From Haliotis rufescens (taxonomy: Eukaryota): a stretch of 64,000 nt of DNA. The notes beneath the pieces are model-generated. The model did not search any database, was not told where the DNA came from, and worked only from the letters and a program-made list of their open reading frames with translations. Position numbers and translations under genes: made by a program. The stretch lies in the NCBI RefSeq assembly GCF_023055435.1, contig NW_025964223.1, forward strand, positions 45,384,001-45,448,000, given 5' to 3'. This document shows positions 11,811-40,202 of this stretch, piece after piece. Position 1 is the stretch's first letter. Every line of letters begins with the position of its first letter.

Positions 11811-11889
11811 GAACCTCCCAAACAAATCTATACAACATAACTATGCCCTAGTAAACAAACACCCCAACTTTCGGATCGGGATCGAAATT

Positions 11890-16410: not shown

Positions 16411-17990
16411 GGGGTTGCCCACATTTCCTTTGTCGCCTCCTATGCGTTTTTTCCTTAGCAAGCGTTTGGATCATCGAGCAAATAACACATATGAGAATTA
16501 CAGTAATGGTTGTTTGTGGTCCGGGTAGGTATTTTGCAGTATCGTTGACTTCCATGTGACAGAGAAATTATTATAAATCAAGACTTTGTGATACAATGTT
16601 AATGTATTAGTGTGATATACTTATCCTTTGCATAACGTCTCGAGTGACAGGGCGACATGCATTTATCTCAAGGCTATCCTGTCACCTGATCATGACCAAC
16701 TACGCATGTTCTTATCATATGCAAACGTTTATAGAACGGCAGTGTCAGGGTCACCAATAATTTCCATAAAATCTAACCACATCTTACCGCATGGAGTCCA
16801 GCTCGTTCTGTACAGACCAGTCGAACTTGGGCCGTCTTGTGAGTATGCCTTTTTAGGTTACATTCATGCCAGAGTGAATGATGTATGTCCAGGACTACTG
16901 GTTTAATAAACTTTGGCGGGATATGGGGTTGGGTTGAAGAGGGATTTTTTTTGTATGTTTCCTATATATACACACATTACTGTCAACACAAATTTGATAA
17001 CAGCAGCTGCGTTAATTCCATGGCACCAGCAGCAAGTCATGCACAGGTTAGTTAGTCAGAGAATGGCCGGTCGGTCACTGGTGTCTGGCTTTGTGAATGA
17101 GGTGCGGGATACTGCAGGCTGGCGATGCAAGAAACGTAATGTGACACGTGCCGGTCTGACAGTGATTCGCTTTAGAGTAAAAAGTAGAATGCAGCGGCTG
17201 GGCAGGTTAGGAATACTGATTTAAATGGATTTGGATGTCTGTCTTTCAAACACTGCAGTCCAACTTTGGGTCCCAAACACTTTTATTCGTTATACAAAAA
17301 ATACAGCTGCGCAATGATAATCGGACCGCAATGCCCATGGAGCATCTTCGAAGCGTTAGTCATCCAACCTGCCTGTCCGAAGCCCCGATCAAGTCTCTCT
17401 CACATCATTTGTGTAATACATTATTATTGTAGAGGTAAGGTATTGTATAATATAACAAAGAATCGACATCTCTTTTTAATTAAAAAGTACCAAAATGTTC
17501 AAATGGCGCCAACTACACGTGGTATAAATGGATATAATCAATGTATTTTGTGTATGCTGTAAGGGACCAGTGTCCAACGTCAAATGATTAACATCTCAGC
17601 TCATCTCAATATTAAACAGATCAGTGGAAACACTTACAACCACAGTGTCACTTACTTGATATGCACATATTTTTTACTGTATGCATCATGCTGACTTGAA
17701 TGATATTATACCACATATATCTATGTTAAGAGTCCGTTTTATTGTTAATAGTAAATATGTTTCGAAAATAAAATGAAACCAGGTACCGCAAGCTGGCGAT
17801 ATATATAAGGTAATATGAAGCGCGGCGATCTGACAGTGAGTCGAGGCGGTGGGGTAGCCTAGTGGTCTAAGCGTTCAATTTTAAGAGCCCGTTTTATTGT
17901 TAACAGTAAATAAGTTTCGAAAGTAAAATAAAACCAGGTAGCTGAATTGTAAACAAAAGAAATCATTGAATGGGATATTTGTTTCAGAAA

Positions 17991-20900
17991 ATGAAATGGA
18001 CACAGGTCTTTTTCACTTTGAGTCTGACAGTAGGCGGTGTATACACTGACACTACTGTCACCATCCACCCTCAATGGCTGGCACAGGGAGGAAGCGCTCA
18101 CTATGATAGTAATAGATGGAACAAGCACAATAACCTGGATCAAGCATTCCTCATTCCAAAATGTCGGAGCATTCGGACTGATAGTGGACGCTGGAGTGAC
18201 AGAGATTATAACGGTCGTCTCTTCCTAGATGTGAGATCTACTTATGAATAATGCAAAATATTACTTCCAAATGAAAACTGTCACTAGTATTGTTCAATGA
18301 AATACTTGACACCATCAAATTGAAAAACCATTTATGGTGATAACGTAATGGTATATATTCATTAAAACAAACATTCGACATACGTTGAGAAGCTCTGCTA
18401 TTTAGATTAAACTCAGATTCATCAATATTAGAAAAAAAATTAATTTAAGTCTTAGAATTTCTCCACAACCTGTTATGAAAAAGATATTGTAAGTTTTTCA
18501 GGCACGTGTTGCCATATCTGTCTAGTGAACTGACAAGAATGGCGAAGGGAGAATAACAGGTCAAATATTGCCTAACAGGTTACAACAGAAATGAAAAAAA
18601 ATATCTAAAATGAGAAAATATTGAATTTAAAACTGTTCGTAATTAATTTCAAAACTTTGATGGTGTATTCTTTACTATTGACAATAACAACGAATATATC
18701 ACTTCTTGGTGCCATATTATGGCAGCTATTCAGAATGACAGTAAATGTCCGTGCAAATATGCATTGGTAAATGTTCACAACATGGCACGAAAGTGGAATA
18801 CACTTTTACTAATATAATAAGCATATTGGTTGTAGTGGCCAGAGGACCCAAACCGTAGTGGCTACCCTGACCCCAACCATCTGAAGAACGTCACCAAACA
18901 GAAGGAACTGTTCTCCGCGTACATTGAGAACATCAACAGTGGTTATGAGAACGACATGATCATGATGGCGGAAGGTAAGATTGTTCGATATGATGGCACT
19001 GTAGCCATGGCGGAACCCAACATAAGCGGATAAGGCCAAAACAAACCAATATAATGTTTACATCACCACCGTGTTATTCTGTTTGTTCGCTGGAAATTTG
19101 GTAGCAGACATCACTTGGGTAATCGTGAATACCATATTTGGGCCAGCATATTGATTGTCTATTGATTCCCATTGTTGGTTCATCGTCACTTGGTATGCAG
19201 AAGCCACGTAGTGAACCAACGTCCATTAAACCGAAATATCCTACTGCGAACTAGAACTTGCCTCATGTTAGACATTTTGTTTACTGTTTGTTTGTTATGT
19301 AACGTCGCTACATGACAGTGGTCTGTAAACAATAGGTACTATATATGGAAATACAATGTTAAAGAAAAATTGCACTGTAAATAAAAAACTTTCGCCGAAA
19401 GTGTATACGTATCGCAGATATTGAAGACTAGGATAAGAAAAGTGTAAGATGCATAAGTATTACTTTCTGCCCCGCGGAGATTCTGGGTAAGAATTGGTCC
19501 CCAACAATCTGTGTAAGGATCAGATTGTCAAGCTCTGTTGATAGCATGTCACTCTATCTCGACGGCGTAGATCGCTGCACAACTATTTGTTTAGGTACAA
19601 CAAAACGAAATATATTAACATTCTATGCCCAAGCATGTATTTTGTTATTCTTTAAAAGATAAATCACTTGTTCAAAATTATATTTCTGTCCGAAACATTT
19701 TTTATTCATTTTCTCACAGAATTCAGGAACAATGACAGAACATCGGTTGTGGTGCAGTAATGTCAGGAAATGTCACCCTATCTTGGATGTCACAGATATC
19801 ACATCAAGTCTCATTCATTCATGTATCAACCCATCTGTATAAAAAATTAATGCAGAAACTCACTAATGGTATCAGCTCTACAAGAGTTAAATACAATTCA
19901 TATTACGAGCGGACAAAAACAATCAATTTTACAAACCCTTTTTATAGCCTTATGAAGCCACCTTGCATTAAGTGAGTGAGCTGGGTTTAACGCCGCTTTT
20001 AACAGTATTCCAGCTATATCGCGGCGTGTCAGCATAATATGGGAGGAAAGCCCGAAGTGATGCAGGTCTCAGACTTTTACCACTTCGATGAAACCAACGA
20101 GCACGGATATGGTCCTGGCAAACCTAGAAACATAATCGGGGCGAACCGGGATTCGAACCCACAATGATAGGTTTCTGTCGTACCCAATGGACGCAACTCC
20201 TCATAGCGAATCGCGGCGCCTCAGAAGACTGAGCTACCAGTGCCCCCCTACTTATATATAACACAAAACTGATATCATTGGTTTAATGTGTGTCCTGATA
20301 AACAAAATGAAAGCCAACCTGCTTTAAAAAAAGGACTAAGATGACCATGACCTTGAACATGGTATTTAATTCATTCCTACACCAGTCATTTTTTTATTAC
20401 ATCATTATTTTATTTTAAATTTAAATTTTAATCATTCATATGTTTTCAAACTGTTTCATTTCAATTCATTTTTGCCAGAACATGTATTTGTTTAACAGTT
20501 TTACTCTTATGCTGTTGACAGCTCTGTTTTACCCGAGTTGGATAGACACGTCTGAACACGATGGTCATTTCCCAAACAATGTCGATGCTGCTGCAGAGTT
20601 CATGATGTTGATGGTGCAAGGAGTGTATGACTACACCAAAGGACAGATGGTTCCACCCTACTTTGAGCCCATAAATGAACCGGATGGTAAATGGCATATC
20701 CTGAATTTCACGACTATCAACATCTTTCACAAATTAGTTGCAGAGAAACTCCATGCCAGATTTAACATCAAAGTTGCTGGTCCTACACTAACCGAAGAAA
20801 CTGGACATTCAGATGTAAACGACTTTTTGTATTGGCACAAAGTAGCAAATTTCATGGACGTCACTTTAGGCTATATTGACGTATTTTCTTTTCATGCGTA

Positions 20901-22011
20901 CAACACACTGGTTGCTTCGGGGAAATCTCACAATTTTACTGGAATAAATGAAGCACGTCTGATAGCATTTGTCGACCTGGTTGAAAACTATGCTTTTCAG
21001 AAGACCGGCAAGATTATCCCCCTTGTTATCAGTGAATATGGTCGCGGCGGCATCATAGGACGTGATAAATTTGCTCCATCGCCTATAGTGGACTTTTCAA
21101 CAATATACCAAGCCAATGCACACAGATTTACCCAACTAGGTCTCAGGGAATATATTGACAGAGCAGTGGTGTTTCTTTTAGCAAATGAAGAATGGCCAGG
21201 ACGTTATAGTCTCAACTATTCACTTTTTACACTTCAAGGAAACGCCACACGTATTGTCGACGTCTACGAGTTTTGGTATAAATTCACGTCAGACTTCTCC
21301 TTCTTAAGAACAACCAGCCAATATGATGGAGCGGAACGAACGGTGTCGCCGTTGGCAATGTCCAGTCCATTGATTAACGAAACCGTCATTCTCTTGCATA
21401 GCTATTCTCGGATGGCACAGGCGGTCAAGTTAGTTTTTCAAAAGAACTGGATCACACCAACCACTGGAGAAGCTACTTGTATCACACTCAAAGACGACTG
21501 GTTCCCAGTCATCACCTTCAATGAACCCATCAACATCCAGAAAACTCAAGGAGTGGTTGAACTTCCTCCTGAAGCAACGTGTCAGTTTACATTCAAGATC
21601 CCTTCCAACAAACTGCCTTCAGTCACTCTCAACGAAACCACATTCTACGGCGTTGATATGCTTTTACCAATCAAGGGCAACGTCACTGTGACAGCAATAA
21701 ATCTACCAAGTAGCCAATTTTACAGTGCAAGACTGAGAGTTTCAACCAGTTGGCCGATCAATGAAACAAACAGTGTATCACATCTTACCTTTAACCTCCA
21801 TCCCCTGGACTCTTTCTTTAAGCTGTATGATTCCGACAAGTTTACCAGCACCACCTATTGGCAAGTTTGGGAGTTTGTAGTCCCTACCTCACTGTTTGCC
21901 ACCGGGCCTAACCTGGTACAGGTTCACTTCTCCAAAAACATGACAGCGGGATATGTTTCTTCAGTAGCTCTTGTCGCAGCCAAGCTTGTCCCATCTGATT
22001 TGAAATCATGA
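17991..22011 (+). CDS. Secreted GH86-like beta-porphyranase/beta-agarase, copy A1, 622 aa; exons 17991-18230, 18836-18974, 20522-22011
   Basis: Exons join in frame through GT-AG introns (phase 0, then phase 1; 240+139+1490 nt). Signal peptide MKWTQVFFTLSLTVGGVYT. Exon 2 encodes WPEDPNRSGYPDP. Clan GH-A motifs YFEPINEPD, KVAGPT, IDVFSFHAY and VISEYG. The C-terminus ETTFYG...ARLRVS...WEFVVP...GYVSSVALV resembles the beta-porphyranase A C-terminal domain. ATTAAA at 22051. Confidence 0.88.
19972..20248 (-). mobile_element. tRNA-derived SINE (family 2) in intron 2 of A1
   Basis: The minus strand begins gggggcactggtagctcagtc (A box), contains gggttcgaatcccgg (B box) and ends in an (actc)n tail. 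It is absent at the equivalent site in A2 (ccattaag|tacttat, ~38290). Confidence 0.85.
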
Positions 22012-22115
22012 TAATGATAATAATTCTGACAAATTTCTCAAACTTTGATAATTAAACATATTCCACCAATGTGTCTAATGTCAGTTTTGATATATTCTTC
22101 TCAGGTCATCAGACA

Positions 22116-22165
22116 CGCAAGCACGCACGCACGCACGCTCACACGCACGCACGCACGCACGCACG
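22116..22165. repeat. (GCAC)n microsatellite downstream of A1 (paralogous copy at 40148-40203)
   Basis: Read directly from the sequence. Confidence 0.9.
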
Positions 22166-23594
22166 TGGTCTGGTGTTTCTGGTCTGATCCATTCTATATA
22201 CAGAACACCGTCCTGTAGGTGGACTATATCTGAGTCTGGTTTTTAACAACAAACGATGTTTTCAGAAAGTTTTGAAAGATACGTGAAGCTGATAACTGAC
22301 TCCGAAAATAAACCGCCCAGTATATAAGCAACGCATGAACATAATTTGGTTCTATGTCGGACACAAAATCATAAGAATTACGATGAACAGTCAAACAGTT
22401 ATCAAATGAGCAAACTCACAGTTACCGTGTGAGCAACCCTGGTAAGATGCAGTTCTTATGAAGCACAGGTATAAAAAAAACACTTTTGAGTACTTGATTC
22501 AGTATCGAAAAGTTCATCAGTATGTATGACGTGCATGTAACGGTCAGGATTTACCAGTCGGTTTTATAGTGCTATCAAACTGTGGTACCACAACACAGTT
22601 TTAAATGTATCCCGAGCTCAGACACAATATACAGACTCTGATCCGACCGCTTCTTGTTATAACCTCTCAATGCCGAGCACTACAGAGAGAGAAACAACAA
22701 GTCGCATCTGTTAACGTCTTTTGGTATGTCGCGTCCAGGAGATCGAACCACCGACCTTCTGCTCTCCGGATCTCTGGCCTGTTTGGTTACAAACCTTATA
22801 ACAACAACTAACCACCAGAAATGTTATATGCAGCAACCACGTGGTATGAAGAATAACATACAATACATTATTTTTGAAGATTGAGACCTTTGACTTTCAC
22901 GTTCCATCATTTATATCTCACCTGACGGAAAGTCAAGTATACTATCTGGAGCTGAAAATTTGTATGAGCGATCCCAGCTAGGGTATCTCTGAAAAGCGTA
23001 AACAAAATCCGATCCGATTATAAACCTTTGTGCCAACCAGTTAAACATTTCTGCACGTATCTTTATGGAATTGGATATGAAGGAAGTAAATGGTAGGCAA
23101 AAATAAAGTCTATGAACCTGAAACTGTGCCAAAATGATACCAGCAGTTGTTTCAAAAAAGTGTTTACAGAATTTCGATGCAATTAGAAACATGGACGCCA
23201 TGGTGGCCACACTGAAGAGTTCATCTTTTGACATTTATTCAGCCATTTCCACATGATGAAGTTTGATGAGCAGAATTTATGCTTCGACCTTGAACTTCAT
23301 GGGAAACATAAGCCGGAGTAGGTGCAAAAGATTCAAAATGCTGAAATTATGCCTGAATGACTTCACGTTTATTTAAGTTTGCTCAGAAAATCATGATATA
23401 CACTCATTAACAATGTTGCCAAAATGTTTGTTTTCCTTTCCCTGGAGCCTATTACACCCCCCCCCCCCCCCCCCCCCCCCTATATTTAGAGGCATATGTC
23501 CAAAAGAAATTTAATGTTCATCTATTTCACCGTATGTGATTACCAGATTGATATTCCTAGAGCGAGGGGCAATTCGTTGTCCAGGGTTCCATCT

Positions 23595-23805
23595 CTTGGG
23601 AACGCCAGAAACCGTTGGTCAGGGGTTCGAATCCTGGTCCGCCCCGATTACGTTTCAAGTTTTGTCATCACAAAAATAATTTTCACCAAAGAGGTGAACG
23701 TCTTAAGCCTGCACCACGTCGGGATTTTCTCCCACATTAAGCTGAAACGCTGTGATATAACTGGAATGCTTTTCAAAGCGGCGTTAAAGACAACTCACTC
23801 ACTCA
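23595..23805 (+). mobile_element. 5'-truncated, diverged SINE family 2 copy (duplicate at ~43128-43338)
   Basis: ggggttcgaatcctgg B box and aagcggcgttaaagacaactcactcactc tail. Confidence 0.7.
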
Positions 23806-23918
23806 GTCGTAAAGAACAACGATTGCATATTATGTTAAGACAACAAACATGGAAAGCACATAGGTTTTTTTATTGTTTTTTAGATCAGTTTCATATTCCA
23901 TTATGTATTGGCTTTTAG

Positions 23919-24540
23919 CTCATAACTGGGCAAGTTGGACGAAGCAGTCCGAACATATATATATATATATATGGAGTATATGACAATACCAAAGGAGAGA
24001 ACCCGCCCTACTTCGATCCCATAAATGAACCGGACACTAAGACTGACATCTGAAATTTTACTTTTGCCACTTCCACAAATTATTGCCAGATTTAACATTA
24101 AAGTGGCTGGTCCCACACTGCAGATAAAACAGTGATACTTAATGGAGCCAATGCAAAAATATCCAGGACGTGATAGTCTGAACTATTCACTTTCACTTTC
24201 AAAGAAATGCCACAGGTACATGTATGGTGGACGTTCTTCGAGTTTTGTACAAATTCACGTCAGACTACTCCTTTTTCGAACTACCAGCCAGTATTATGCA
24301 CAGGAACGAACCATGTCGAGGTTAGCACAACGAAATTGGCACAAACTGTGACTGTAAAGACGACAGGATCAAACCAGCCACTGGATGAGCTACCTGCGTC
24401 ACCATCAAGGACAACTGTATCTCATCGTAACCTTCAACGGGCCCTTTAACATACAGAAAACACAAAGAATGGTTGAACTTCCTCATGAGGCAAGGCCCCC
24501 TCACACAAACTACAAAGTGCCACTCTCATTGAAACCTCAT
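23919..24540 (+). pseudogene. Old, internally deleted GH86-like exon-3 pseudogene (psi1)
   Basis: Acceptor ttttag|ctcataactgg. Recognisable codons for GVYD.TKG..PPYFDPINEPD, RFNIKVAGPTL, YPGRDSLNYSL and MVELPHEA, with stops and frameshifts. The nucleophile region is deleted and an (AT)n tract replaces part of the exon. Confidence 0.85.
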
Positions 24541-24795
24541 AATAAGGCACTGATATGCTTATACCAATAACTGGCTCTGTTACGTGAAAATAAATAATTA
24601 CTGGAGATATGCAGTTTTGTGTGTTGACTGGGAGGCTTAGAGAAACATTTGTTTATTTGTTGTTTCACGCCACATTCGGCAACATCAGAGCTATATGACG
24701 GTGGTTGGTAAATAATGGAGTCTGGGCCAGACTGATTGTCAAACATGATGATGATGAATCAACATTCTGGAAATCATGTAAATTGTATCTATTTT

Positions 24796-24853
24796 GCACA
24801 GGGACGTAGTGTTCGCTATGACTGTGACAGGTGGAACAAGCACATGGCCTGGA
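24796..24853 (+). pseudogene. Exon-1 remnant of a GH86-like gene (duplicate at ~44356-44412)
   Basis: gcacagggacgtagtgttcgctatgactgtgacaggtggaacaagcacatggcctgga resembles the AQGGRVRYESDRWNKHNGL codons of B1. Confidence 0.75.
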
Positions 24854-25261
24854 TGATAAGGGCTTGACATACTTGCCTTTACAAATATTGTTACACCAAA
24901 CGGTCACCGTCTTATGCGTTTGTTTCCTTAAGCAAGCGTTTAGATCATCAGGGAAATAACACATATAAAAAGAACAGCAAGAGCTTTCTGAAAGCAAAAT
25001 AGTCCACTCAGGTATTTTGGAATATCGGTTTAGACTTTCGTATAAATCGGGCTGTCTTTTCAATGTTAGTGTATTGGTGTAATATACACATCTTCCCTTC
25101 TGGCGTGGCATTCACTTACCTCAAGGCATAGTATCACCACACCTACATACCTACGCATGTTCTTATCATGTACACACATTTATGGAACGTCACAAATAAT
25201 TCTCGTGAATTCTTATCATTAAAGCTGTTCAAGTCTGATGATACATTATATTCCAGTGACA

Positions 25262-28200
25262 ATGAAATGGACACAGGCCTATTTCGCTTTGAGTCTGATT
25301 ACAGACGGTGTGTACAGTGACACGACGGTGACGATCTACCCTCAGTGGCTGGCACAGGGAGGTAGAGTTCGCTATGAGAGTGACAGGTGGAACAAGCATA
25401 ACGGCCTGGAACAGGAGTCCCTTATTGCAAACTGTCGGAGCATTCGGACTGACAGTGGGCGCTGGATGAACAGAGATCTAAATGATCGTCTCTTCCAAGA
25501 TGTGAGATTTTCTTTCCAATTCGATTTTTTTACCTTGTACTTCATATATTAGACAGTGCTTTATAATTATGTCTTTATGTCATTAGGATAAACATTCATG
25601 ACTTGATGAGCCTACACGTGGAGGTTCTGGGTTAGCGTAAGTCTGCAACAACCAGTGGGCGCTGGATACACGAAGATTTTAGTCTCTTTAAAGAAGTGGG
25701 ATTTCTTTCTAACTCAATTCTGTATGTTGTCCCAACACGTCACATATTAGACAGAAACTGATGGTTTTCATTTGCTCATACTGTAATGTCGTAGTTATGG
25801 TTTCAAAAGTACGTTTTGACAGTAATGTTACATGTATTGCAAACAGACATTACTTGACAAATATATTGCTATGGTGATATTGCTCAGATGCATGATGGTG
25901 TTGGGATGAAATTGAATGTTGAGATCAACCTCAAGCTAAGGCAAAAGACACCATGTTAAAGAGTCAATGTCTATATTTCGTTGGGATATACAATAATTCT
26001 AAGATGTCCCATGTTCATCTCAGACAAGACAAGTGAAGTAATTAAGACTGATGTGGAGAAACCTACATGTAGGTCAAGAGCATTAGTGAGTGGGTATGGT
26101 TTTACGGCGCTTTTAGCAATATTCCAGCAAAAGCACGGCGGGGGACACCAGAAATGGGCTTTACACATTGTGCCCATATCGGGAATCGAACCCGGTCTTC
26201 GGCGTGATGAGTGAAATTGTTTACATGTTTATTGTTTGATATTGAGTAACAAATGAGCATCTTTGGAATATAACTCTTGCATTTTGTACACAATTTAATG
26301 TATTAATACTGTGATACATGTTATTTCCGTGAACCGTCAGTGGCATGAAATGGGTTGTATATAATATTAACTTGTTCATTGTATAGTGGCCAGAGGACGC
26401 ACACCGTAGCGGCTACCCCGACCCCAACTACCTAAAGAACATCAGCAAGCAACAGGAACTATTCTCCAACTACCTTGCTGACATTGACAGTGGCTATAAG
26501 AACGAAATGATCATGGTGATGAATGGTAAGAATAATCGGAAACAAAAGCGTTATTTGATTGGTAACGAAATAATCATGATGAAGAAAGGCACGACCAGTT
26601 ATGCGATAGTTAACATAATTAAAACGGCCGTGGATGTGTTTATATTTCTTTATCACGTGCCACAACAATAATAGCAGCAAAAAGTCCAAACACGATGAAA
26701 GAAATAATTTCGAGAATGAGACATAGTCGCGAATTTCTGCAATGAAGTGGTCAGATGTCCCATAGACAGATGAGTGTGTTCTTGTTCCATCACATACTGT
26801 TTAACGCCGAACCTAGCAATATTCCAGCTATATTGCGGAGGCTGCTAGCTCCATCGTCCATCGTAAGTGAATGTCAAGATCACACATTTACATTCTTCTG
26901 TGGAAAGGAAAGAGTGAGCGGGTGAGTTGGGTTTAACGCCGCTTATAACACCATTCAAGTTATATCGCGGCGTGTCAGCTTAATGTGGGAGGAAAGCCCG
27001 AAGTGATGCAGGTCTAAGACGTTTATTAGTTCGGTGAAACCCACGAGCACGGGTATAGTGCTGACAAACCTAGAAATATAATCAGGGCGAACCGGGATTC
27101 CAACCCCCAATCATAGGTTTCTGGCGTGCCCAAGGGACGCAACTCTGTACAGCGAATCGCGGCGCTTTAGACGACTGGGCAACCCGTGCCCCCGGAATGG
27201 AAAGAGGAAGATGATGTGCAGATGCATGTGGCAAGTAATGAGGTTAGGTTTCAAGTTCTATCTTTTGGCAATTGGTAGTAGGAAAAGCCAAAAATACTAG
27301 ACGTACTCTGGGGGGAAGGTACAAATGATTGGTGTGAGAGTCATTTAGACATGTAAGATGTCTTGAAAAGCTAGTTATTAAAGGCAATTAAAAAATCCAT
27401 GTATAAGATAATCAGTTTGGCGTGTTGTTTCTCTTCTAAGAAGATTAACTTTGCCTTTAAAACTAAAATACATGCGTATACTCTTGTAGAAGAAGCATAG
27501 ATGCATTTCAGTCAGTGTCATGTTTCGTTGTATTTGCATATTTCAGCTCTCAACTGGCCAGACTGGATGAACCAATCCGAACATGAGGGCCAATTCCCAA
27601 ACAACATCGATGCTGCTGCAGAGTTTATCGTGTTGATGCTACAAGGAGTCTATGACTACACACAAGGTCACATACCGCCATACTTCGAGGTCGTCAACGA
27701 ACCAGATGTTAAAGAGCAAATAATGAATTTCACGACCACTGTAGCCTTATTCCACAAAACAGTTGCCGAGAAACTCCATTCTAGGTTTCACATCAAAGTG
27801 ACTGGCCCGACAATGACGGGATATAACACAGTGGTAGACAGGAACGACTTTTCGTTCTGGACGAAACTGGTCGATTTCATGGACATAACTTTAGGCTATT
27901 TGGACGTGTTTTCTTTTCATTCGTACAACTCACTTATTGTTTCGGGGAAATCTCACCGATTTACTGGTATAAATGAAGCGCGTCTAGTAGCTTTTGTCGA
28001 CCTGCTTGAAAACTATGTTCATCAAAAGACGGGAAGGATTATACCTCTCATTATCAGTGAATATGGTCGCGGGAAAGTGACGGGAATAAGCTCAACAGCT
28101 CCATCTGGGATAGTCGACTTTGCAACAATATACCAGTCTAATGCCCATAGATTCACCCACCTTGGTCTCAGAGAATACATTGACAAAACAGTGGTGTTTC

Positions 28201-29039
28201 TATTGTCCAATCAACAATATCCAGGACATGATAGTCTCAACCGGTCACTTTTCACCCGCCAAGGAAACGCCACACGTATTGTCGATGTCTTCAAATTCTG
28301 GTACAATTTCACGTCAGAGTATTCCTTCATCAGAACCGCCAGCCAATGTGACGTACAAGAACGAACTGTGTCACCATTAGCAATGTCAAGTTCCTTGCAT
28401 AATGAAACTGTCATTCTCTTACACAGCTATTCTCAACAATCACAGGACGTCAAGCTAGTTTTCCAAGAAGACTGGATCACACCAACAACGGGAGAAGCTA
28501 CTTGCATCACACTCAAGGACAACTGGTATCCAGTCATCACCTTCAACGAACCCTTAGACATCGGTGACACTCGGGGAATGGTTACACTTCCACCCGAAGC
28601 AACATGTCGTTATACATTCAAGACCCCCTCAAGCCAATTACCTAAAGTCATTCTCAATGAAACAACATACTACGGAAGTGATATCATTATACCTATCAAG
28701 GACAGCATTGCTGTGACGACCATATTACTTCCAAAAGATGAATTCGACAGCGCAAGACTGCGAGTTTCAACAAGTCTTCCCATCAATGAAACAAACAGTC
28801 TGTCATCTGTTACCTTTAACCACCAACCTCTTTATTTCTTTTACAAGCTGTTCGACTCAGACAAACAGAACAGTCAAATCTACAACTTCATGGATGTTTG
28901 GGAGTTTGATGTCCATTCCACCTTGTTGAACACCACTTCTATCACGGTCCAGGTTAACTTCTCCAACAAGCAGGCTAAAGGATACGTGACTTCGGTAGCC
29001 CTGGTCACAGCCAAGCTCCTCCCATCCGATACTAAATAA
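25262..29039 (+). CDS. Secreted GH86-like beta-porphyranase/beta-agarase, copy B1 (second subtype), 623 aa; exons 25262-25501, 26387-26525, 27547-29039
   Basis: Same intron positions and phases as A1 (240+139+1493 nt, GT-AG). Signal peptide MKWTQAYFALSLITDGVYS. Motifs WPEDAHRSGYPDP, YFEVVNEPD, LDVFSFHSY, IISEYG and GYVTSVALV. ATTAAA at 29078. Confidence 0.88.
26084..26210 (-). mobile_element. Truncated tRNA-derived SINE (family 1) in intron 1 of B1 (shared with B2 at ~45646-45773)
   Basis: gtgagtgggtatggttttacggcgcttttagcaatattccagc...gggaatcgaaccc matches the full-length copies at 51789 and 55693. Confidence 0.8.
26914..27193 (-). mobile_element. Full-length SINE family 2 in intron 2 of B1, with a ~12-bp target-site duplication
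   Basis: Flanked by ggaaaggaaaga and ggaatggaaaga. The empty site is seen in B2 (tgtggaaaggaaagaggaag, ~46377). Confidence 0.88.
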
Positions 29040-30149
29040 TGATTAGGATAATACTGCAAAATAATAAGGTGGCATTGATTAAAGTGTATCATATATTTGT
29101 TATTGTGTTCCTAGGAGGTGATCTGATGGTAGGCCTGGTAACCCCGTGGGTGATACGGATCATGGAGATTCCCTTTATATTATAACCTTCCTGTGCTGAT
29201 ACCTTTAAGCTATTGATTGGAAGTAATGAGGGTGTTTCCTTGAGTGACATGTTTTCAGAAAATTGTAATCAAGCTTGATGCCATTGTTAGTACTAAAGGA
29301 AGACATTGGACTATTGCTATTACTATTATAGGTGTTATAGAGTGGTACACCAGCCAGAGAACTATACTTAGACGCAATGACTTCAAATTGCTGCTATTTA
29401 TTTATTACAGATCTGATAAATCCTTCTATACACCCTACTTAGTGTCATTTCCCTTGTGGGGGTTTTATAATTTTTGTCGGTAGTTCTATAACTTTATAAT
29501 AAGGGCATCTTCACGATCAACATTTATACCTCACGTACACAAAGTATTATCACATAACGGATTACAAAGCTTAATATAACATTAAAAGATTATAGTTTGT
29601 GCTGGTTATCAAATACCGTGTGCGAAACGTTTTAGCAAAGAATATAGAATAGCACATTACATCTCACTTTAATATGTTATCAACAGCTATAAACAATAAA
29701 CAGCTTTTACATGTTACTGTCAGATATTCAGTAAATATAATAGGTTTCTTGTTCCTACCTATTTCTTAACCATCACTTATAACCTCGTCGGGGTTTACTT
29801 ATCCAACATCGACCAAGAAGGATACGTCCTCTCACTTGGCCTCATCACACCCAATCTTGTGTCCTCCAACATGGACGAATTATAAATCTCAAACATTATA
29901 TCCACAATTATCATTATTATGAATTAAACAAGACATGATGTTTAGCGAAATAAGTGTTTCTAAATTTCATTTCCTTACCATAATTGTTAGGTATAATCTC
30001 AAACATGCAAATATAGAGAGGAAAACTAGAATGAGGTTTCCATTGCATGCAAAAACAGAAGCAGTGCCATCCTCACCTGTTCTTGAAATACCCCCTAAAC
30101 CTTCCCATTAAAAAACAAGTATCATGAACCATTGTGACTTTTGACGGGT

Positions 30150-30830
30150 GCCAGTTGAACTCACACATGCCCAATACAGTACAACTTTGAATGTCCTTTA
30201 CCTCTATGTACCTTAATAATAAAGCTATAACCACTTCAAGTTTAATAATATCAATTCTTGTTTAAGAAAGCACATGCCTAAGGCAGTATAACTTTTAAAC
30301 AGAAACGCCCTTGCCTCTAGCCAGAGAGTTACCATAATACTAAAGTGATAATCATTCCCTTCATCAGTGCCGGGTTGAGACAACACATTCCTAATGAAGT
30401 ACGACTTTGAAACCGAAACATATATGTATGTATGCCTGTAGCTACGTGTACCTTACTAACACAATTATAAGCACTTTGGTTTTAGTAACATCACTTACGG
30501 AAACACATGCCCTATTCAGGATAACATTGAAATAGAAAGTCCCATGCTTCTAAATATCTTAATAACAAAGTTACAAGCACTTCAGGTTCAGTAACGTATC
30601 TTCCAGTTCGGGAAAACACATGCCCAATGCAGTAGCACTTTCAAACAAAAATCCCCTTGCTTTCAGATAGCTTAAAAACAAAGTCCCATTCCCCTAACTT
30701 ATAAGGACTTCCGTTATAATAACGTTACTTCCGGTTTCGGGAAAATACATGCCAAATGCAGTACAAGAATGTAATGCAATTTTGCTGCAACCTCCGTAAG
30801 AAAGTTATAAGCTCTTCAGTTTTACGTTTC
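30150..30830. repeat. Diverged ~113-bp minisatellite (block 1/2 junction)
   Basis: Recurrent cacatgcccaat.cagta..actttcaaac and ttcc.gttc motifs. Confidence 0.7.
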
Positions 30831-31221
30831 GTTTAATGCAATATACATCGGGGGAAAATGTAATCAGTGTTTCAGTTTCAAAGTCTCCCAAACGGGTCTC
30901 GAATATGTGACGGAAATCACCAGGAATATTGTGACAACTTATTCGGAACTGATGTAGAGTGGAAGATACGACACTGCTTGGACTTGAGTTCTGAGTTTAC
31001 ATAGAACTGTAGAAAACGATACTTTAAATGCACTCATGAGCTCCTCGAGTGGTTTAAGTGTTGAATACATAATATATATATATAATAATCATAATGATTT
31101 ATTATATCCTGGAAATATTGTGTGAGAAGGTATTTTGAATTTGAATGGTATAAGCTTTTTTGTAATCATAATACATCTTATAATCACTTGTTTGTTGCAA
31201 CATGCAAATTGATACCAATAC

Positions 31222-31452
31222 AGTGAGTGAGTGAGTTGGGTTTAACGCCACTTTTTAACAGTATTCCAGTTATATCGCGGCGTGTCAGCTTAATGTGGGA
31301 GGTAAGCCCGAAGTGGTGCAGGTCTCAGACATTTACCACTTCGGTGAAACCCACGAGCACGGGTAAGGTGCTGACAAACCTAGAAGCATAACCGGGCCGA
31401 ACCGGGATTCGAACCTACAATTATAGGTTTCTGGCGTGCCTAAGGGATCGCA
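31222..31452 (-). mobile_element. 5'-truncated SINE family 2, associated with a local deletion relative to block 1
   Basis: (gagt)n tail, tttaacgcc...gggattcgaacc. The block-1 sequence ~15484-15852 is missing here. Confidence 0.8.
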
Positions 31453-33117
31453 ACCTATGATGATGGTCAGAGGCAACTTGATGGATCGGGTGGTCAGGCT
31501 CGGGGACTTGGCTGATGGCTTGTAAACGTACCCTTGCAGCGGGATCGTTGCATATAGCATCAATGACTGGATTGTTCATATTCGATTATTTACAGGCTGG
31601 TGGAAGGTCTTTTTCGCACTGAGCTGATAATACATAATAACTATTAAGCAAGTCACCGAGCTGTCAAGCATAATAATAAGGCGCCATCAACAAGTACCGT
31701 AAGTCATTACACTTAAGTTGTATTGAAATGGACACTGGTCTTTCTCGCCTTGAGCTGATAATACACAATAGACATGCAATCAACCAAGTTTTCCCTTAGC
31801 AAGCGTTTGGATCATCGCTGAAATAACACATTTGAGAATTACAGCAATGGTTGTTTGTGGTCCGCGTAGGTATTTTGCAATATCTGTGACTTCCATGTGA
31901 CAGGGAAATTATTATAAATAAAGACTGTGTGATACAATGTTAATGTATTAGGGTGATATAGTTATCTTTTGCATAACGTCTCGAGTGAGAGGGCGACATG
32001 CATTTATCTCAAGGCTATCCTGTCACCTGACCTACATACCAACGCATGTTCTTATCATAAGCAAACATTTATAGAACGGTAGTTCAGGGTCACCAATAAT
32101 TTCCATGAAATCTAACCACATCTTACCACATAGACTCCAGCTCGTACTGTGCAGACCAGTCGAACTTGGAACGTCTTGTGAGTATGCCTTGTGTATGTTA
32201 CATTCATGCCAGAGTGAATGATGTATGTCCATACATGGACTACTGGTTTTACAGACAGGAAATATAATATTACATCGCAGGTACTTTGGCGGGATATGGG
32301 GTTGGGTTAAAGAGGGAGTTTATACAGGTTTTGTATATTTCCAAATTTGATAACAGCAGCTGCGTTAATTCCATGGCGTGAATGAGGTGCGGGATACTGC
32401 AGGCTGGCGATGCAAGAAACGTAATGTGATACGTGCCGGTCTGACAGTGATTCGCTTTAGGGTAAAAAGTAGAATGCAGCGGCTGGGCAGGTTAGGAATA
32501 CTGATGTAAATGGCTTTGGATGTCTGTCTTTCAAACACCGCAGTCCAACTTTGGGTCCAAAACACTTTCATTCGTTATACAAAAAATACAGCTGTGCAAT
32601 GATAATCGAACCGCAATGGCCATGGAGCATCTTCGAAGCGTTAGGCATCCAACCTGCCTGTCCGAAGTCCCGATCAAGTCTCTCTCACATCATTTTTGTA
32701 ATACATTATTATTGTAGAGGTAAGGTATTGTATAATATAACAAAGAATCGACATCTCTTTTTAATTAAAAAATACCAAAATGTTCAAATGGCGCCAACTA
32801 CACGTGGTGTCAATGGATATAATCAATGTATTTTGTGTATGCTGTAAGGGACCAGTGTCCAACATCAAATGATTAACATCTCAGCTCATCTCAATAAACA
32901 GATCAGTGGAAACATTTACAACTACAGTGTCACGTACTTGATATGCACATATATTTTACTGTATGCATCATGCTGACTTGAATGATATTATACCACATAT
33001 ATCTATGTTAAGAGCCCGTTTTATTGTTAATAGTAAATATGTTTCGAAAATAAAATGAAACAAGGTAGCTGAATTGTAAATAAATAATTTCATTGAATGG
33101 AATATATGTTACAGAAA

Positions 33118-36100
33118 ATGAAATGGACACAGGTCTTTTTCACTTTGAGTCTGACAGTAGGCGGTGTATACACTGACACTACTGTCACCATCAATCCTCA
33201 ATGGCTGGCACAGGGAGGAAGCGCTCACTATGATAGTAATAGATGGAACAAGCACAATAACCTGGATCAAGCATTCCTCATTCCAAAATGTCGGAGCCTC
33301 CGGACTGATAGTGGACGCTGGGGTGACAGAGATTATAACGGTCGCCTCTTCCTAGATGTGAGACCTACTTCTGAATAATGCCAAATATTACTTGCAAATG
33401 AAAACTGTCACTAAAGAACTGTCGGAAATGCTAGAAAACTGCTTTTGTGGCTTTATTTAATAAATACGAGTCATAGAACTATAAAAAGAGCATATCTCAA
33501 AATAACGCGAATTGCCCTAATCTAGCCTGTCCTAACTGCCACTGTGATTACCCTTTAAATGTACTTTTACAGGTAAAATGATGATACACTTAGAAAATAT
33601 TGTCTGTTGTCATGCATGTATAAAATGGCCTATAACCTGAATTTATTACCTAACACCTAACCCGAGGTGAAGTCCTCACACAGTCCCGTGCATTCTCCCA
33701 GGTGCAAATGTCACCGAGTTGGGGGTGGTCTCAGAATATTGCTGTTATTGTACTTAAATGACATGCGTTGATGAGGTAGCAATTAAGGATATGTACTGCA
33801 TTATATTTGCTTGGAAACATGATGGACTAGTTAAGAGCTTTGAAACGGGATGAGTATTGAAGGTTGAGGTTTTGGAATCCAGAAGTATTTGTTGTTCTAC
33901 AGATGGTTTCTTGGGGTAGCATTTATCGCCGCTGATGACGTATATGAATCTGTACTTTTGAATGTTGTGTTATGTCCCGTCACGAACCCTGTACATTTAG
34001 CCAAGATAGACACAACGGGGTTGAGCTCACAATGTCTGACTGCCGTACGTAAGACAACGTAACCGTGTTGTGCCGCCAGCACATATGTCTTGTACTTTAC
34101 TGGTTTCTCATTCAGCCGAATTTCCTCCATGATCCTTATGATCTGAAGTCGACCAATGTCATATATTCCTGTATGGTCGCCTTCAGACTAATCATGGTTT
34201 GTGCGACAGTATCTGATTCCCGGACGTTATATTAACTGGCGTTATCCATGACAATCACACTGACGTTGTTTAAAATGGACAATAGCTGAAGTTCCAACCA
34301 GTCTATGAACACATCACCTCCTATAATTTCCTTATGAAAATCACCAGTTTTCTTTTCCGCCTCGAAAACTAGCACACATCTATCAATTAGCCCAATACCA
34401 TGGGTTGCAGCGTGCAAAACAATGACACGATTACCTTTACCTGATGGTACCATGGGTGCTTTTTGTCCATCTGCCAATAGCCACATGTAGTCAGTGGAAT
34501 GATTCACCAAGGTAAATTATCTGGACACCTTGACTGTGATTGTTATGAATGGTTCGGAGATAATGTGACCTCATAGACAGGATGAAATATTTTCCCCTGA
34601 AAAGTGCTCGGTCATCGCGACGCGCAGTGTATCGAAATCCCATCTCTTGGAGAGCAATAGTTAGTGCAGTCCGGGAAACATTAATTGTATCTTTAATTCC
34701 TCCCAAATTCTACTTCAAGTCAGGGTTACCTTCTGCTCATAAAGCTTGTACACTATACGCCTAATCACCCTGTATCAAAGCTGTCTAATATCCTTTTACG
34801 CCCCAGCCCTATACCTGTTTTGTATTCTTATCATACCGTAGTCTTGATGGTATGAATTGAAAACACCATAGCTTGGGCAGTTCGGTAATTCAACCTCTCT
34901 CAATTAATAAATGGTTTCCCATTATCTCTCTAAAGTGTAAAGAACTTGTATGCATTTCCAAGTACAGATTCCATAATTATGATGTACCTTGGTTATGGCT
35001 ATGCAAGTGTAATGTAACATGCATCATGGGAGCAATGTTAACAACAAAAAACGCAGCGTCATTTTGTCATTTTAGAAGATGCACATCTAGATTTTTTTCA
35101 AAATGATTTTAGTGTGTTGAGCAGATGTTTTATGAAGACGACATTATTATCATTGTAACGGCGTCACGTGCGCATATTTCTATAGTCCGTTTCAGACTGC
35201 CATCGTTGGACTTATAAATGTGAGCTTCCTGTTTTCGTTCGAATTTGTCTCCTGTAAACTTGTCGATAGGACTCCTTGTGACTGAAATACTTCAAACCAC
35301 AGGTGTGGCGATCGGTAGTTATTCCATATTTCAATAACAACAGTCTGTGAAAAATTATATATCTTTTTAACAAAAAAGCAGTTTTCTAGCATTTCCGACA
35401 GTGCTTTAGTATTGTTCAAGGAATTATTTGACATTATCAAATTGAAAAGCCAGTGATGGTGATAACGTAATGGTATATATTCAATAAAAACAAAGTTTCA
35501 ACATACTTGGAGTCACTCTGCTATTTAGATTAAACTCAGATTCTTCAATATTAGAAAAAACAAATTCATTTATGTCTTAGGATTTCTCCAAAACCTGTTA
35601 CGAAAAAGATATTTTAAGTTCTTAATGCACGTGTTGCTATATCTGTCAAGTGAACTGACAAGAATTGCGTAGGGAGAATAACAGGTCAAATATTGCCTAA
35701 CAGAAATGAAAACAAATATCTAAAATGAGAAAATATTGAATTGCGAATTGTTCGTAATTAATTTCAAAACTTTGATAGTGTATTCTTCACCATTGACAAT
35801 AACAGCGAACAATGTCACTTCTTGACGCCATATTATGGCAGCTATTCAGGCTGACAGTAAATGTCCGTGCAAATATGCATTGATAAATGTTCACAAAATG
35901 GCACCAAGTGGAAAACACCTTTACCAATCTAATAAGCATATATATTGTAGTGGCCAGAGGACCCAAACCGTAGTGGCTACCCTGACCCCAACTATCTGAA
36001 GAACGTCACCAAACAGAAGGAACTGTTCTCCAAGTACGTTGAGAACATCAACAGTGGTTATGAGAACGACATGATCATGATGGCGGAAGGTAAGATTGTT

Positions 36101-39100
36101 CGATATGATGGCACTGTAGCCATGGCGGAACCCAACATAAGTGGATAAGGCCAAAACAAACTAATCTAATGTTTACATCACCACCGTTTTATTCTGTTTG
36201 TTCGCTGGATTTTTGGTAGCAGCCATCACTTGGGTAATGCTGGATTCAATATTTGGGCCAACATCTTGATTGTCTATTGATTCCAATTGGTTTCCATTAA
36301 TGCGACGAGAACCCACTGTTGGTTCATCGTCACTTGGCATGCAGAAGCCCAGTAGTGAACCAACGTCCCTTAAACCAAAATATCTTACTGCGAACTAGAA
36401 CTTGCCTGATTGTAGAGATTTTGTTTACTGTTTGTCTGTTGTTTAACGTCGCAACATGACAGTGGTCTGTGAACAATCGCTACAATATATGGGAATACAA
36501 TGTTAAAGACAGAATGCAATGTAAATAAATATCATCAGCCGAAAGTTTATACGTATCGCAGATATTGAAGAAAAGGATAAAAAATGTATGATGCATTAGT
36601 ACTACTTTCTATCCTGCGGAGATTGGTCCCCAACAATCTGTGTAAGGATCAGCTTGTCAAGCTCTGTTGATTGCGTATCACTCTATCTCGACGGCGTAGA
36701 TCGCTGCTCTTAATATCAGCCACTAGTTTATTTGGTTACAGGTCGCCGTCGAGGACCTGGGATTTCGCTAAGTGCCGCGTTAAGCAACGAACATGTATTA
36801 CTCCTCATACGAGATTTGGAGATACGCGAGGACAATAACGTCTCTTTATTACTTCATGCTTGAGTTCGTGAGGTAATTTAACTGACTCAAACTTCAGCAA
36901 CTGCTGGTAGAGAACGTCGATTATCCTTATCTACATTTTAGGGGAGCTTTGGGGAACAGTTACTTGAGGAAGTAGATCTGATGTATGGAGCTCATCCAAC
37001 GTCGCTCCTTCTAGGCGACCTCAGTTGCAAATACCAAGTAGATTTGGTTTGGTCTATCACATCGATAACACTTTCCATCACATAAAATACTCACATCCTT
37101 GAGTATTTGATTTTTGGTGTCTCCCTATCCATTTCGTGACTCAAAATAATTTTAAAAGCAACCCTTCTCCAATATAGTAAAATGTTTATGTTGAAGTTAA
37201 AAGTATGATTCATTAACCTTAAAGTCTCCGTCGAGGACCTGGGATTTCGCCGAGTGCCGAATTAAACAGCAAACAATTACTACTCCTTATGAGACAATAA
37301 TGTCTCTTTATTACTTCATGCGTAAATTAATCAGAGTTCCCGAGATAAAACTCAGTGAAACTTCAGCAACTGGCGTCAGAAAATGTCCCTTGCCCTCACG
37401 AACGTATTGGGGGAAACTCGGGAAATAGTTCACTGAGGACATAGATATGATATGTGGAGCTCAAAGAACAAATGGTGGTGGTATGCTTCACACCAAAACT
37501 AAACTGAAAAATATATACTGTTTTAGAGAAGATAACGCAGAGGCTAATAATTTGAATTAATATTATCAGTAATTGTATTCACATTATAACTAGAATAAAA
37601 CTGTTTGTTTAGATATGACAAAACTAAATATTAGTATATAAACTGTCTATGCTGAAGCGATATCCATATATAATTAGCATGTATTTTATCTTCTAAAATC
37701 GACAAATCACTCGCTGAAAAGTTTGATTTTGTCCGTAGCCATTTTATCCAATTTCTCTAAGAAAAATCAGAAAAACAAAACTAAACATTGGTTCTGGTGC
37801 AATAATGTCAGGAAATGTCACCCAACCTGGGATGTCACAGATATCACGTCTTGTCAAGAGTCAAAGAAATATCATATTACCAACGGTTCCTTTGACACAG
37901 CTGTCTACGGTTCAGCCTAGTTCGTATAAGCCCATACTGTCCCTGTCCCTCATAAGTGTCCCACAACTATTCACAATTCCTCCTTGAAGATCCAGGTTAA
38001 AACTGCTCTTCAGCAACCATGTTGTCGTAAGGGGCAACTAACGGGATCGGGTGGTCGGGCTTGCTGACGTGGTTGATGCATGTCATCGTTTCCCAATTGC
38101 ACAGGTCGCTGCTCATGATGTCAAACAGGATTGTCTGGGGCGCTACACAATACGAAAATATATAAACACAAAGTTATAATTCAATATTGATTATCAAGTT
38201 ATTTATGTAAGGATATTGGATAAATGTTGGACAAAAACAAGCAATTTTACAAACCATTGTAATAGCCTAATGAAGCCACCTTCCATTAAGTACTTATATG
38301 TGACACAAAAATGATATCATACGTTTAATGTGTTTCCTGATAAACAAAATGAAAGCCAACCTGCTTTAAAATAGAGACTAAGATGACCATGACCTTGAAC
38401 ATGGCATATATTTCCTTTCTAAACCAGTCATTACATCATTATTTTATTTTCAATTTAAATTTTAATCATTCATATGTTTTCAAACTGTTTCATTTCAATT
38501 CATTTTTGCCAGAACATGTATTTGTTTAACAGTTTTACTCTTATGCTGTTGACAGCTCTGTTTTACCCGAGTTGGATAGACACGTCTGAACACGATGGTC
38601 ATTTCCCAAACAATGTCGATGCTGCTGCAGAGTTCATGATGTTGATGGTGCAAGGAGTGTATGACTACACCAAAGGACAGATGATTCCACCCTACTTTGA
38701 GCCCATAAATGAACCGGATGGTAAACGGCATATCCTGAATTTCACGACTATTACCATTTTTCACAAATTAGTTGCAGAGAAACTCCATGCCAGATTTAAC
38801 ATCAAAGTTGCTGGTCCTACACTGACCGGACAAACAGGACATTCAGATATAAACGACTTTTTGTATTGGCACAATGTGGCAAATTTCATGGACGTCACTT
38901 TAGGCTACATCGACGTATTTTCTTTTCATGCATACAACTATCTCGTTGTTTCGGGGAAATTTCACAATTTTACTGGAATAAATGAAGCACGTCTGGTAGC
39001 ATTTGTCGACCTGGTCGAAAATTATGCTTCTCAGAAGACCGGCAAGATTATCCCCCTTGTTATCAGTGAATATGGTCGCGGCGCCGTCATTGGACGTGAT

Positions 39101-40045: not shown

Positions 40046-40163
40046 TAATGATAATAATTCTGACAAATTTCTCAAACTTTGATAATAAAAACATATTCCA
40101 CCAATGTGTCTAATGTAAGTTTTGATATATTCTTCTCAGGTCATCAGACACGCAAGCACGCAA

Positions 40164-40202
<39 letters not shown>

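What the first reader, a model, noticed from the sequence alone, without database searches (positions are those of the whole stretch)
25262..29039. Two divergent enzyme subtypes (A and B) are interleaved and co-duplicated as a pair
B differs from A throughout the loops near the catalytic motifs: EVVNEPDVKEQ vs EPINEPDGKWH, GPTMTGYNTVVD vs GPTLTEETGHSD, GKVTGISST vs GGIIGRDKF, and SNQQYPG vs ANEEWPG. The catalytic Glu residues and intron positions are kept. The order is A-psi-B-A-psi-B(psi)-A. Inference: the subtypes have complementary specificities, for example sulfated porphyran versus neutral agarose, or different product sizes, like a small eukaryotic counterpart of a polysaccharide utilisation locus.
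Basis: partly seen in the sequence, partly recalled or inferred. Interest (0 to 1): 0.7.

Follow-up and report, generated by a model that had tools for sequence, protein, structure and literature searches.

The report
Abalone seaweed-enzyme gene array, passive duplication
The A and B genes are two expressed members of a family of more than 50 abalone genes that resemble bacterial red-seaweed-digesting enzymes; B was likely copied along with A by one chance recombination and the new B copy then broke, so the pair is ordinary, while the large animal family, predicted to cut algal galactans, is the interesting part.

Summary
Observation confirmed: five three-exon GH86-like genes in the order A1-psi-B1-A2-psi-B2(broken)-A3; A and B are 68% identical and keep both catalytic Glu. 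The 'pair' comes from one tandem duplication with a junction at 30,890-30,901, where A2's upstream DNA switches from A3-like (82 vs 10 sites) to A1-like (80 vs 22): the mark of unequal crossover. B lay between and was carried along; its copy broke, A's survived. A and B are not a two-subtype system: this Haliotis rufescens genome has 59 open GH86-like exon-3 frames (53 distinct at 99%), and B's closest relative lies in another array 5 Mb away. Both types are spliced and under purifying selection (dN/dS 0.29). A/B differences are enriched on the cleft face (41 of 102 vs 38 of 150), so some difference in specificity is plausible, but both carry Leu where the bacterial porphyranase has its sulfate-pocket Ser; a porphyran/agarose split is unsupported, as is a PUL. 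The larger point is a mollusc-wide GH86 family, hugely expanded in abalone, nearest to protist proteins; nine targeted literature searches found no paper on it.

The parts
17991..22011 (+). Gene A1, GH86-like; exons 17991-18230, 18836-18974, 20522-22011; 622 aa; acid/base Glu179 (20677), nucleophile Glu298 (21034)
   Evidence: A-type splice joint 18974^20522 in 4 of 4 runs (contigs may come from any A-type paralog)
23918..24641 (+). psi1: decayed exon-3 remnant of a third paralog type, closest to the genes at C445:39.976/39.986/40.019 Mb (71-73% nt); an exon-1 remnant follows at 24796-24854
25262..29039 (+). Gene B1, GH86-like; exons 25262-25501, 26387-26525, 27547-29039; 623 aa; acid/base Glu178 (27699), nucleophile Glu298 (28059); exon 1 and exon 3 have different closest relatives
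   Evidence: spliced contigs across 26525^27547 in runs X1 and X2
30890..30901 (.). Junction of the tandem duplication: DNA is like A3's upstream region to the left and like A1's to the right
   Evidence: 82 vs 10 informative sites left, 22 vs 80 right (switch point fitted to the same data)
15165..30890 (+). Duplicated unit, copy 1 (A1 upstream DNA, A1, psi1, B1, B 3' flank)
30901..50212 (+). Duplicated unit, copy 2 (A2, psi2, B2), 96.5-98.7% identical to copy 1 in six blocks and 90.9% in the seventh; longer through insertions
33118..40045 (+). Gene A2; exons 33118-33357, 35951-36089, 38556-40045; intact, 622 aa
43451..44107 (+). psi2, copy of psi1; exon-1 remnant at 44355-44413
44839..48193 (+). 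B2 pseudogene; 97.8% nt to B1; 5-nt deletion after 47094, in-frame TAA near 47747, 30-nt deletion after 47768
53530..57439 (+). Gene A3; exons 53530-53769, 54343-54481, 55950-57439; intact, 622 aa; older sister of A1/A2

Best explanation
A and B are two intact, spliced paralogs of a large abalone GH86-like gene family, predicted to be secreted retaining beta-galactan hydrolases, and their repeat as a pair likely comes from one unequal crossover that copied B passively. Steps. (1, shown) Each gene has three exons and encodes a protein with a hydrophobic N-terminus, 9-11 N-glycosylation sequons and a predicted (beta/alpha)8 barrel plus two beta-sandwich domains with both catalytic Glu. (2, inferred from GH86 chemistry) It would cut beta-1,4 galactosidic bonds of red-algal galactans in the gut. 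(3, shown as a sequence pattern; crossover inferred) An ancestral A1-psi-B-A3 cluster mis-paired between the related upstream regions of A1 and A3 and crossed over near 30.9 kb, which gives A1-psi-B1-A2-psi-B2-A3. (4, shown) A2 stayed open, B2 broke: birth-and-death turnover, with no sign that the 1:1 pair is kept. (5, inferred) A and B probably differ somewhat in substrate or product preference, as most old paralogs here may, since the cleft loops vary across the whole family and exon 1 has a different history from exon 3. They are points in a spectrum, not a porphyranase/agarase couple.
For: Junction: 82 vs 10 and 22 vs 80 informative sites, no N there. B2 lesions. A second sample, run X18, has a different 23-nt frameshifting deletion in B-type exon 3, one contig at depth 7.7. 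Family size: 87 matches among 96 candidates; 59 open exon-3 frames of 480 aa or more among 68 loci examined, 53/45/33 groups at 99/95/90%. B1 is sister to C445:40.064 (83% aa, dS 0.35) and 39.968, while A nests among other genes of that array. A fourth A copy (A0) lies 120 kb upstream with no B in the 40 kb read around it. B1 exon 1 sides with gene 39.976 (31 vs 7 sites), exon 3 with 40.064 (176 vs 68), Fisher p 3e-10. Fold: pLDDT 91.5; Z 40.7 (rmsd 2.8, 525 aligned) to 4AW7, Z 34.5 (rmsd 2.9, 564 aligned) to 5TA5, best other family Z 20.0. dN/dS 0.21-0.39 in all 18 pairs computed.
Against: In H. rubra, B-type proteins (P0005, P0270) are on the same 1.56-Mb scaffold as A-type proteins (P0025, P0037 and others), so A-B linkage may be old, which selection could also explain; orthology among B-type genes is unresolved (support 51-66). 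A1/B1 is among the most divergent 5% of pairs in the 21-gene clade. Identity to characterised GH86 enzymes is only 16-20%, so the substrate is an inference; filter-feeding bivalves have the family too. Subsite mapping is by alignment, not by superposed coordinates. Tissue of expression was not seen.
Confidence: 0.72

Rival explanations
1. One reading: A and B are a co-selected complementary pair, one cutting sulfated porphyran and one neutral agarose (or giving different product sizes), kept together like a small PUL.
For: Cleft-face enrichment of A1/B1 differences, 41 of 102 vs 38 of 150, p 0.018; residue 69 (aligned at low confidence to T82 of the agarase, F77 of the porphyranase) is Ser/Gly in A, Met in B; residue 351 (aligned to the Trp after the pocket residue) is Trp in A, Tyr in B; A- and B-type joints occur in the same runs X1 and X2; shared scaffold in H. 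rubra.
Against: One duplication, B copy lost; sulfate-pocket position is Leu in both; dozens of other loop combinations in the same genome; A0 stands without B; no other enzyme family among the 25 ORFs of 120 aa or more, three of which were scanned and are transposon parts.
Confidence: 0.12
2. The family is real but its substrate is not agar or porphyran: at 16-20% identity the mollusc proteins may cut another beta-linked glycan (microalgal, biofilm or the animal's own mucus glycans), and the loop variation is relaxed drift.
For: Low identity; presence in Mytilus and Pinctada; nearest non-mollusc relatives are protist proteins; codon-model omega is nearly equal for cleft loops and core, 0.315 vs 0.275, never above 1; Pfam porphyranase domains not hit by B1, A2 or A3 at E 0.05.
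Against: All solved sequence matches are GH86 agarases/porphyranase (4 of 4); the full three-domain fold matches GH86 far better than GH5/30/39/51; over ten disjoint paralog pairs pN/pS is 0.37 on cleft loops, 0.22 in the core and 0.12 on the opposite loops, p 1e-4; the expansion is in an algal grazer.
Confidence: 0.25
3. The second A-psi-B unit is an assembly artefact: two haplotypes joined in tandem, so A2 and B2 are alleles of A1 and B1.
For: Units differ by only 1.3-3.5% in most blocks; this assembly holds identical copies on small contigs elsewhere (C599/C601); a mis-join at a repeat would give the same hybrid junction. Public contigs over the junction did not settle it.
Against: No N at the junction; the two upstream regions are only about 77-87% alike, easy to tell apart; A1-A2 distance (0.053) exceeds that between A3 and its H. 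cracherodii orthologue (0.035).
Confidence: 0.08

Closest known systems
BpGH86A beta-porphyranase, Bacteroides plebeius (PDB 4AW7)
   Same: Whole three-domain fold (Z 40.7, rmsd 2.8, 525 aligned); NEP acid/base, HxY and SE(F/Y)G nucleophile motifs aligned.
   Different: 16-17% identity; the sulfate-pocket Ser326 aligns to Leu346 in both A and B; animal gene with two introns and many N-glycosylation sequons.
BuGH86 agarase, Bacteroides uniformis NP1 (PDB 5TA0/5TA1/5TA5) and Aga86A_Wa (8H97)
   Same: Best profile matches (E 7e-40), TM 0.77-0.81; a bulky residue fills the pocket position (Met in BuGH86, Ile in 8H97, Leu here).
   Different: 17-20% identity; BuGH86 works in a PUL with GH16, GH117, GH2, sulfatases and SusC/D (PMC5849685 passages); no such partners seen in the window.
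NCBI automatic annotation 'beta-porphyranase A-like' in Haliotis, Mytilus, Liolophura
   Same: B1 is XP_046359334.2; the family is already labelled in the databases.
   Different: A name by similarity only; no functional, phylogenetic or copy-number study found in the searches run.
Tandem birth-and-death arrays expanded by unequal crossover (general knowledge, recalled)
   Same: Head-to-tail paralogs, hybrid junction, pseudogenes, exon-level mosaicism.
   Different: Nothing in the mechanism; only the gene family is unusual.

Membership tests
GH86 | (beta/alpha)8 barrel with two beta-sandwich domains | tested here: met
   AlphaFold model of B1, pLDDT 91.5, pTM 0.91; top 7 Foldseek rows and top 5 VIA rows are GH86, Z 34.0-40.7 against 20.0 for the next family
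GH86 | Clan GH-A catalytic pair: acid/base Glu in NEP, nucleophile Glu in SE(Y/F)G | tested here: met
   Glu178/179 and Glu298 align to the GH86 motifs, including the position mutated in BuGH86 E322Q; Glu178 in 96 of 96, Glu298 in 91 of 96 mollusc proteins
GH86 | Sequence relationship to characterised members | tested here: met
   Profile search of the PDB gives 4 sequences, all GH86, E 6e-27 to 7e-40; hhalign to bacterial homologues probability 100, 587 columns
GH86 | Pfam BPA_C / Porphyrn_cat_1 domains | tested here: inconclusive
   Not hit by B1, A2, A3 at E 0.05; PF18040 is precomputed for many Haliotis, Mytilus and chiton relatives
GH86 | Hydrolysis of beta-1,4 bonds in agarose or porphyran | not testable with these tools
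   needs enzyme assay
GH86 beta-porphyranase (BpGH86A type) | Small residue (Ser326) at the base of the 6-sulfate pocket in subsite -2 | tested here: not met
   By alignment the position is Leu346 in A1, A2, A3 and B1; anchored without gaps between Phe344 and Trp/Tyr351, but not by superposed coordinates
GH86 beta-porphyranase (BpGH86A type) | Bulky Phe77 (Thr82 in the agarase) in subsite -2 | tested here: inconclusive
   Maps at low confidence to residue 69: Ser/Gly in A, Met in B, nine residue types in the family
Polysaccharide utilisation locus | Several complementary enzyme families plus transporter and regulator in one cluster | tested here: not met
   Only GH86-like genes and transposon parts recognised among 25 ORFs of 120 aa or more; genes made of short exons would be missed
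Polysaccharide utilisation locus | Co-regulation by the substrate | not testable with these tools
   only assembled contigs without tissue or diet labels were available

The most novel reading that the evidence does not exclude
Abalone carry their own large battery of GH86 red-algal galactan hydrolases, a family regarded as a bacterial hallmark. It comes from a eukaryotic GH86 lineage shared with foraminifera and Picozoa, was present in the common ancestor of chitons, bivalves and gastropods, and grew in Haliotis to 50 or more genes whose cleft loops are diversified and re-assorted by exon exchange to cover differently sulfated and methylated agars, with a conserved nucleophile-less subgroup serving as glycan binders. 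The host, not only its gut bacteria, would then open red-algal cell walls.
Probability: 0.4. Interest if true: 0.72.

Novelty: new variant of a known kind. Interest (0 to 1): 0.47.

Why it matters
The A/B pair itself teaches little: it is a normal tandem duplication. The family behind it matters. The abalone papers read here look to gut bacteria for agar and porphyran breakdown (PMC5870069 and PMC6181387, passages; the second names a host alginate lyase). A host-encoded, intron-bearing, expressed GH86 family of 50 or more genes would make the question of who digests red algae in grazing molluscs directly testable, would give a natural panel of cleft variants for mapping agarase/porphyranase specificity, and bears on feed design in abalone farming.

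Tried and rejected
Expression level: the runs are assembled contigs, so depth cannot rank A against B; no holder is on record as RNA, and only splice joints were used. B2 expression: no contig with B2's deletions was listed, which is no proof of silence; listed B contigs spanning those sites had no gaps (records 7 and 13; records 17 and 29). Junction in other animals: one contig of X16 spans it with 41 differences and could not be assigned. Positive selection: no partition gave omega above 1; no site-wise or branch-site program was on hand. Direct transfer from bacteria into molluscs: not supported, since protist proteins are the sister group (FastTree support 1.0, midpoint root, 160 sequences); no direction of transfer was tested. 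Origin of the window cluster as a copy of the adjacent 40.072-40.064 genes: only patchy flank similarity and psi has no counterpart there, left open. A second fold (of A) was not run because no coordinates are returned for comparing clefts. The protein atlas gave no result. Three look-ups of earlier scan findings returned nothing. The original BpGH86A paper was not seen; residue roles come from PMC5849685 section 10. No supplements were read; supplements of abalone genome or transcriptome papers could list these genes.
Full report
Observation. The quoted motifs are in frame on the + strand. Joining exons at GT..AG sites gives five genes with the same two intron positions and phases: A1 (17991-22011), B1 (25262-29039), A2 (33118-40045), B2 (44839-48193) and A3 (53530-57439). 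A1-A3 encode 622 aa and B1 623 aa without internal stops. B2 is 97.8% identical to B1 but has a 5-nt deletion, a 30-nt deletion and a TAA. Decayed exon-3 remnants lie at 23918-24641 and 43451-44107. A/B identity is about 68%. The protein search names the host: B1 is identical to the Haliotis rufescens model XP_046359334.2, 'beta-porphyranase A-like'.

What the proteins are. B1 exon 3 matches BpGH86A at E 7e-9. A profile of 13 mollusc proteins matches four PDB sequences, all GH86. The AlphaFold model of B1 (80-sequence alignment, pLDDT 91.5) aligns over its whole length to 4AW7 (Z 40.7, rmsd 2.8, 525 residues) and to the GH86 agarases (Z 34.0-34.5); the next family reaches Z 20.0. Both catalytic Glu are present in A and B. 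A hydrophobic N-terminus, no later 19-residue window above 1.3 and 9-11 N-glycosylation sequons suggest secretion (inference). Identity to the characterised enzymes is only 16-20%, so galactan hydrolysis is inferred, not shown.

How the pair arose. Self-comparison shows the block from A1's upstream DNA to B1's 3' flank repeated once. A three-way alignment of the upstream regions of A1, A2 and A3 shows A2's region siding with A3's at 82 of 92 informative sites up to 30,890 and with A1's at 80 of 102 sites from 30,901 on (the switch point was fitted to these data). This is what one unequal crossover between the related upstream regions of A1 and A3 would leave: everything between them, psi and B included, is copied whether useful or not. 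Six of seven blocks of the two units are 96.5-98.7% identical, the seventh 90.9%, in line with a single event. Afterwards A2 stayed open (dN/dS to A1 0.27) and B2 broke. In another sample (run X18, label organism F) a B-type exon 3 carries a different 23-nt deletion, in one contig of depth 7.7. A fourth A gene 120 kb upstream has no B in the 40 kb read around it. So 'co-duplicated as a pair' is literally true but gives no evidence that the pair is selected. An assembly mis-join cannot be fully excluded, but the junction has no N and A1-A2 are further apart than A3 is from its H. cracherodii orthologue.

Not two subtypes. A search of the own genome scored 96 candidates and gave 87 matches (a lower bound). 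Of 68 loci examined, 59 have an open exon-3 frame of 480 aa or more, forming 53, 45 and 33 groups at 99, 95 and 90% identity; some identical copies on small contigs are probably haplotigs. Contig C445 has a 184-kb array of 17 long copies and several remnants at 39.93-40.11 Mb. In the exon-3 tree (63 sequences of 415 aa or more; 5 shorter ones left out) B1 is sister to the gene at 40.064 Mb, which shares EVVNEPDVKE and GPTMTGYNTVVD, while the A genes nest among other genes of that array. Among 21 open paralogs of this clade the four quoted loops occur in 17, 13, 16 and 10 versions. Psi is closest to a third type. B1 is also a mosaic, or the donor of one: its exon 1 sides with gene 39.976 (31 vs 7 sites), its exon 3 with 40.064 (176 vs 68; p 3e-10). 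A- and B-type proteins exist in H. rubra, H. asinina and H. cracherodii, so the split is old (dS 0.77).

Do A and B differ where it matters? With loops defined from the predicted barrel, A1 and B1 differ at 41 of 102 cleft-face positions and 38 of 150 core and opposite-face positions (p 0.018); the C-terminal sandwiches differ at 81 of 233. Over ten disjoint paralog pairs pN/pS is 0.37 on the cleft face, 0.22 in the core and 0.12 on the opposite loops (p 1e-4), but a codon model gives 0.315 against 0.275 and nothing above 1: modest diversification or relaxation, family-wide. PMC5849685 (section 10 read in full; other passages) places agarose/porphyran selectivity in subsite -2: F77 and S326 in BpGH86A, T82 and a Met in BuGH86. 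By the chain alignments that Met is the residue two after the PF motif (M369 by my count; the paper prints M396). Through a bacterial intermediate this position is Leu346 in A1, A2, A3 and B1 and in 80 of 96 mollusc proteins: neither has the small pocket residue, whereas paralog 39.976 has Ser and C601:1.029 has Ala there. T82/F77 maps at low confidence to residue 69, Ser/Gly in A and Met in B, and the Trp five residues on is Trp in A, Tyr in B. Some difference in preference is thus plausible; a porphyran/agarose split is not supported.

Expression. In runs X1 and X2, contigs join B exon 2 to exon 3 at the predicted sites with 1 and 12 differing letters, and listed B contigs cross B2's deletion sites without gaps; an A-type joint at 18974^20522 occurs in 4 of 4 runs. 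The runs are RNA by guess only, but the joints show spliced transcripts. Tissue and level are unknown.

Where the family comes from. Named animal hits in three searches are all molluscs: four Haliotis species, four Mytilus species, Pinctada and the chiton Liolophura. A profile search of 1.84 billion representatives gave 589 hits, the best 150 listed. In a tree of 160 of these proteins the mollusc sequences form one clade (support 1.0) whose sister group holds proteins from the foraminifer Bolivina argentea, a Picozoa cell, another EukProt entry and one unnamed protein; two of the remaining sequences were named and are bacterial, the rest are unlabelled. The direction of any transfer was not tested.

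Literature. Nine searches aimed at animal or abalone GH86, porphyranase or agarase listed no paper on this family; I saw listings and abstract starts, and passages of PMC5870069 and PMC6181387, which discuss bacterial GH86 and bacterial agar breakdown. The library lacks most subscription journals and I read no supplements, so this is no proof that it is unpublished; NCBI already names the genes by similarity. Older reports of agarase activity in mollusc gut extracts exist as I recall, unverified here.

Verdict. The layout is real; the pair is a by-product of one crossover in a birth-and-death array, and the PUL-like reading is weak (about 0.12). The surrounding fact, a large expressed animal GH86 family with variable cleft loops and a nucleophile-less branch, is a new variant of a known kind and is worth an enzyme assay. 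Interest 0.47, nearly all of it from the family and not from the pair.

Noticed in passing
G000 C1:5.72, 76.83 Mb (two); C90:25.15, 26.23 Mb; C285 (L060-L065): Six of 59 open paralogs lack the nucleophile (SEYG becomes SAHG, SAYG or SAFG) but keep NEP/NEV; the change is shared with H. rubra and H. asinina proteins: a conserved, probably inactive or glycan-binding GH86 branch.
   Followed up: partly
window 25262-25501 against G000 C445:39,978,483-39,978,722: Exon 1 and exon 3 trees disagree for B1, 39.976 and 39.986; exon 1 carries a putative -2 subsite residue, so exon exchange could re-assort cleft parts.
   Followed up: partly
G000 C445:39.976 Mb (L011); C601:1.029 Mb (L044): Paralogs with Ser or Ala at the position aligned to the porphyranase sulfate pocket: better porphyranase candidates than A or B.
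   Followed up: no
proteins P0104, P0128, P0167, P0145, P0279: GH86-like proteins in a foraminifer (Bolivina argentea), a Picozoa cell and another EukProt entry form the sister group of the mollusc family.
   Followed up: partly
window 28568-28591 laid with run X18: A 23-nt frameshifting deletion in a B-type exon 3 in another sample, different from B2's lesions; one contig, depth 7.7.
   Followed up: no
G000 C599, C601, C285: Identical or nearly identical paralogs on small contigs, probably haplotigs or duplicated assembly, inflate the raw copy count.
   Followed up: partly
window 16139, 16275, 24796, 31724, 44355, 50930, 51127, 51240, 60908: Short remnants (31-60 nt) resembling exon 1 lie upstream of the genes and beyond A3, traces of more lost copies; the array at 40 Mb has similar remnants.
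   Followed up: no
window 21-7238: Diverged tandem array, unit 84-87 bp with higher periods 171 and 258, no frame open beyond 132 codons; looks like satellite DNA.
   Followed up: partly
window 9733-12721: Broken retrotransposon (reverse transcriptase, RNase H, zf-RVT) followed by a MULE transposase fragment.
   Followed up: partly
PMC5849685 section 10: The text gives the BuGH86 pocket residue as M396; by the chain alignments the Met equivalent to BpGH86A S326 is residue 369.
   Followed up: yes
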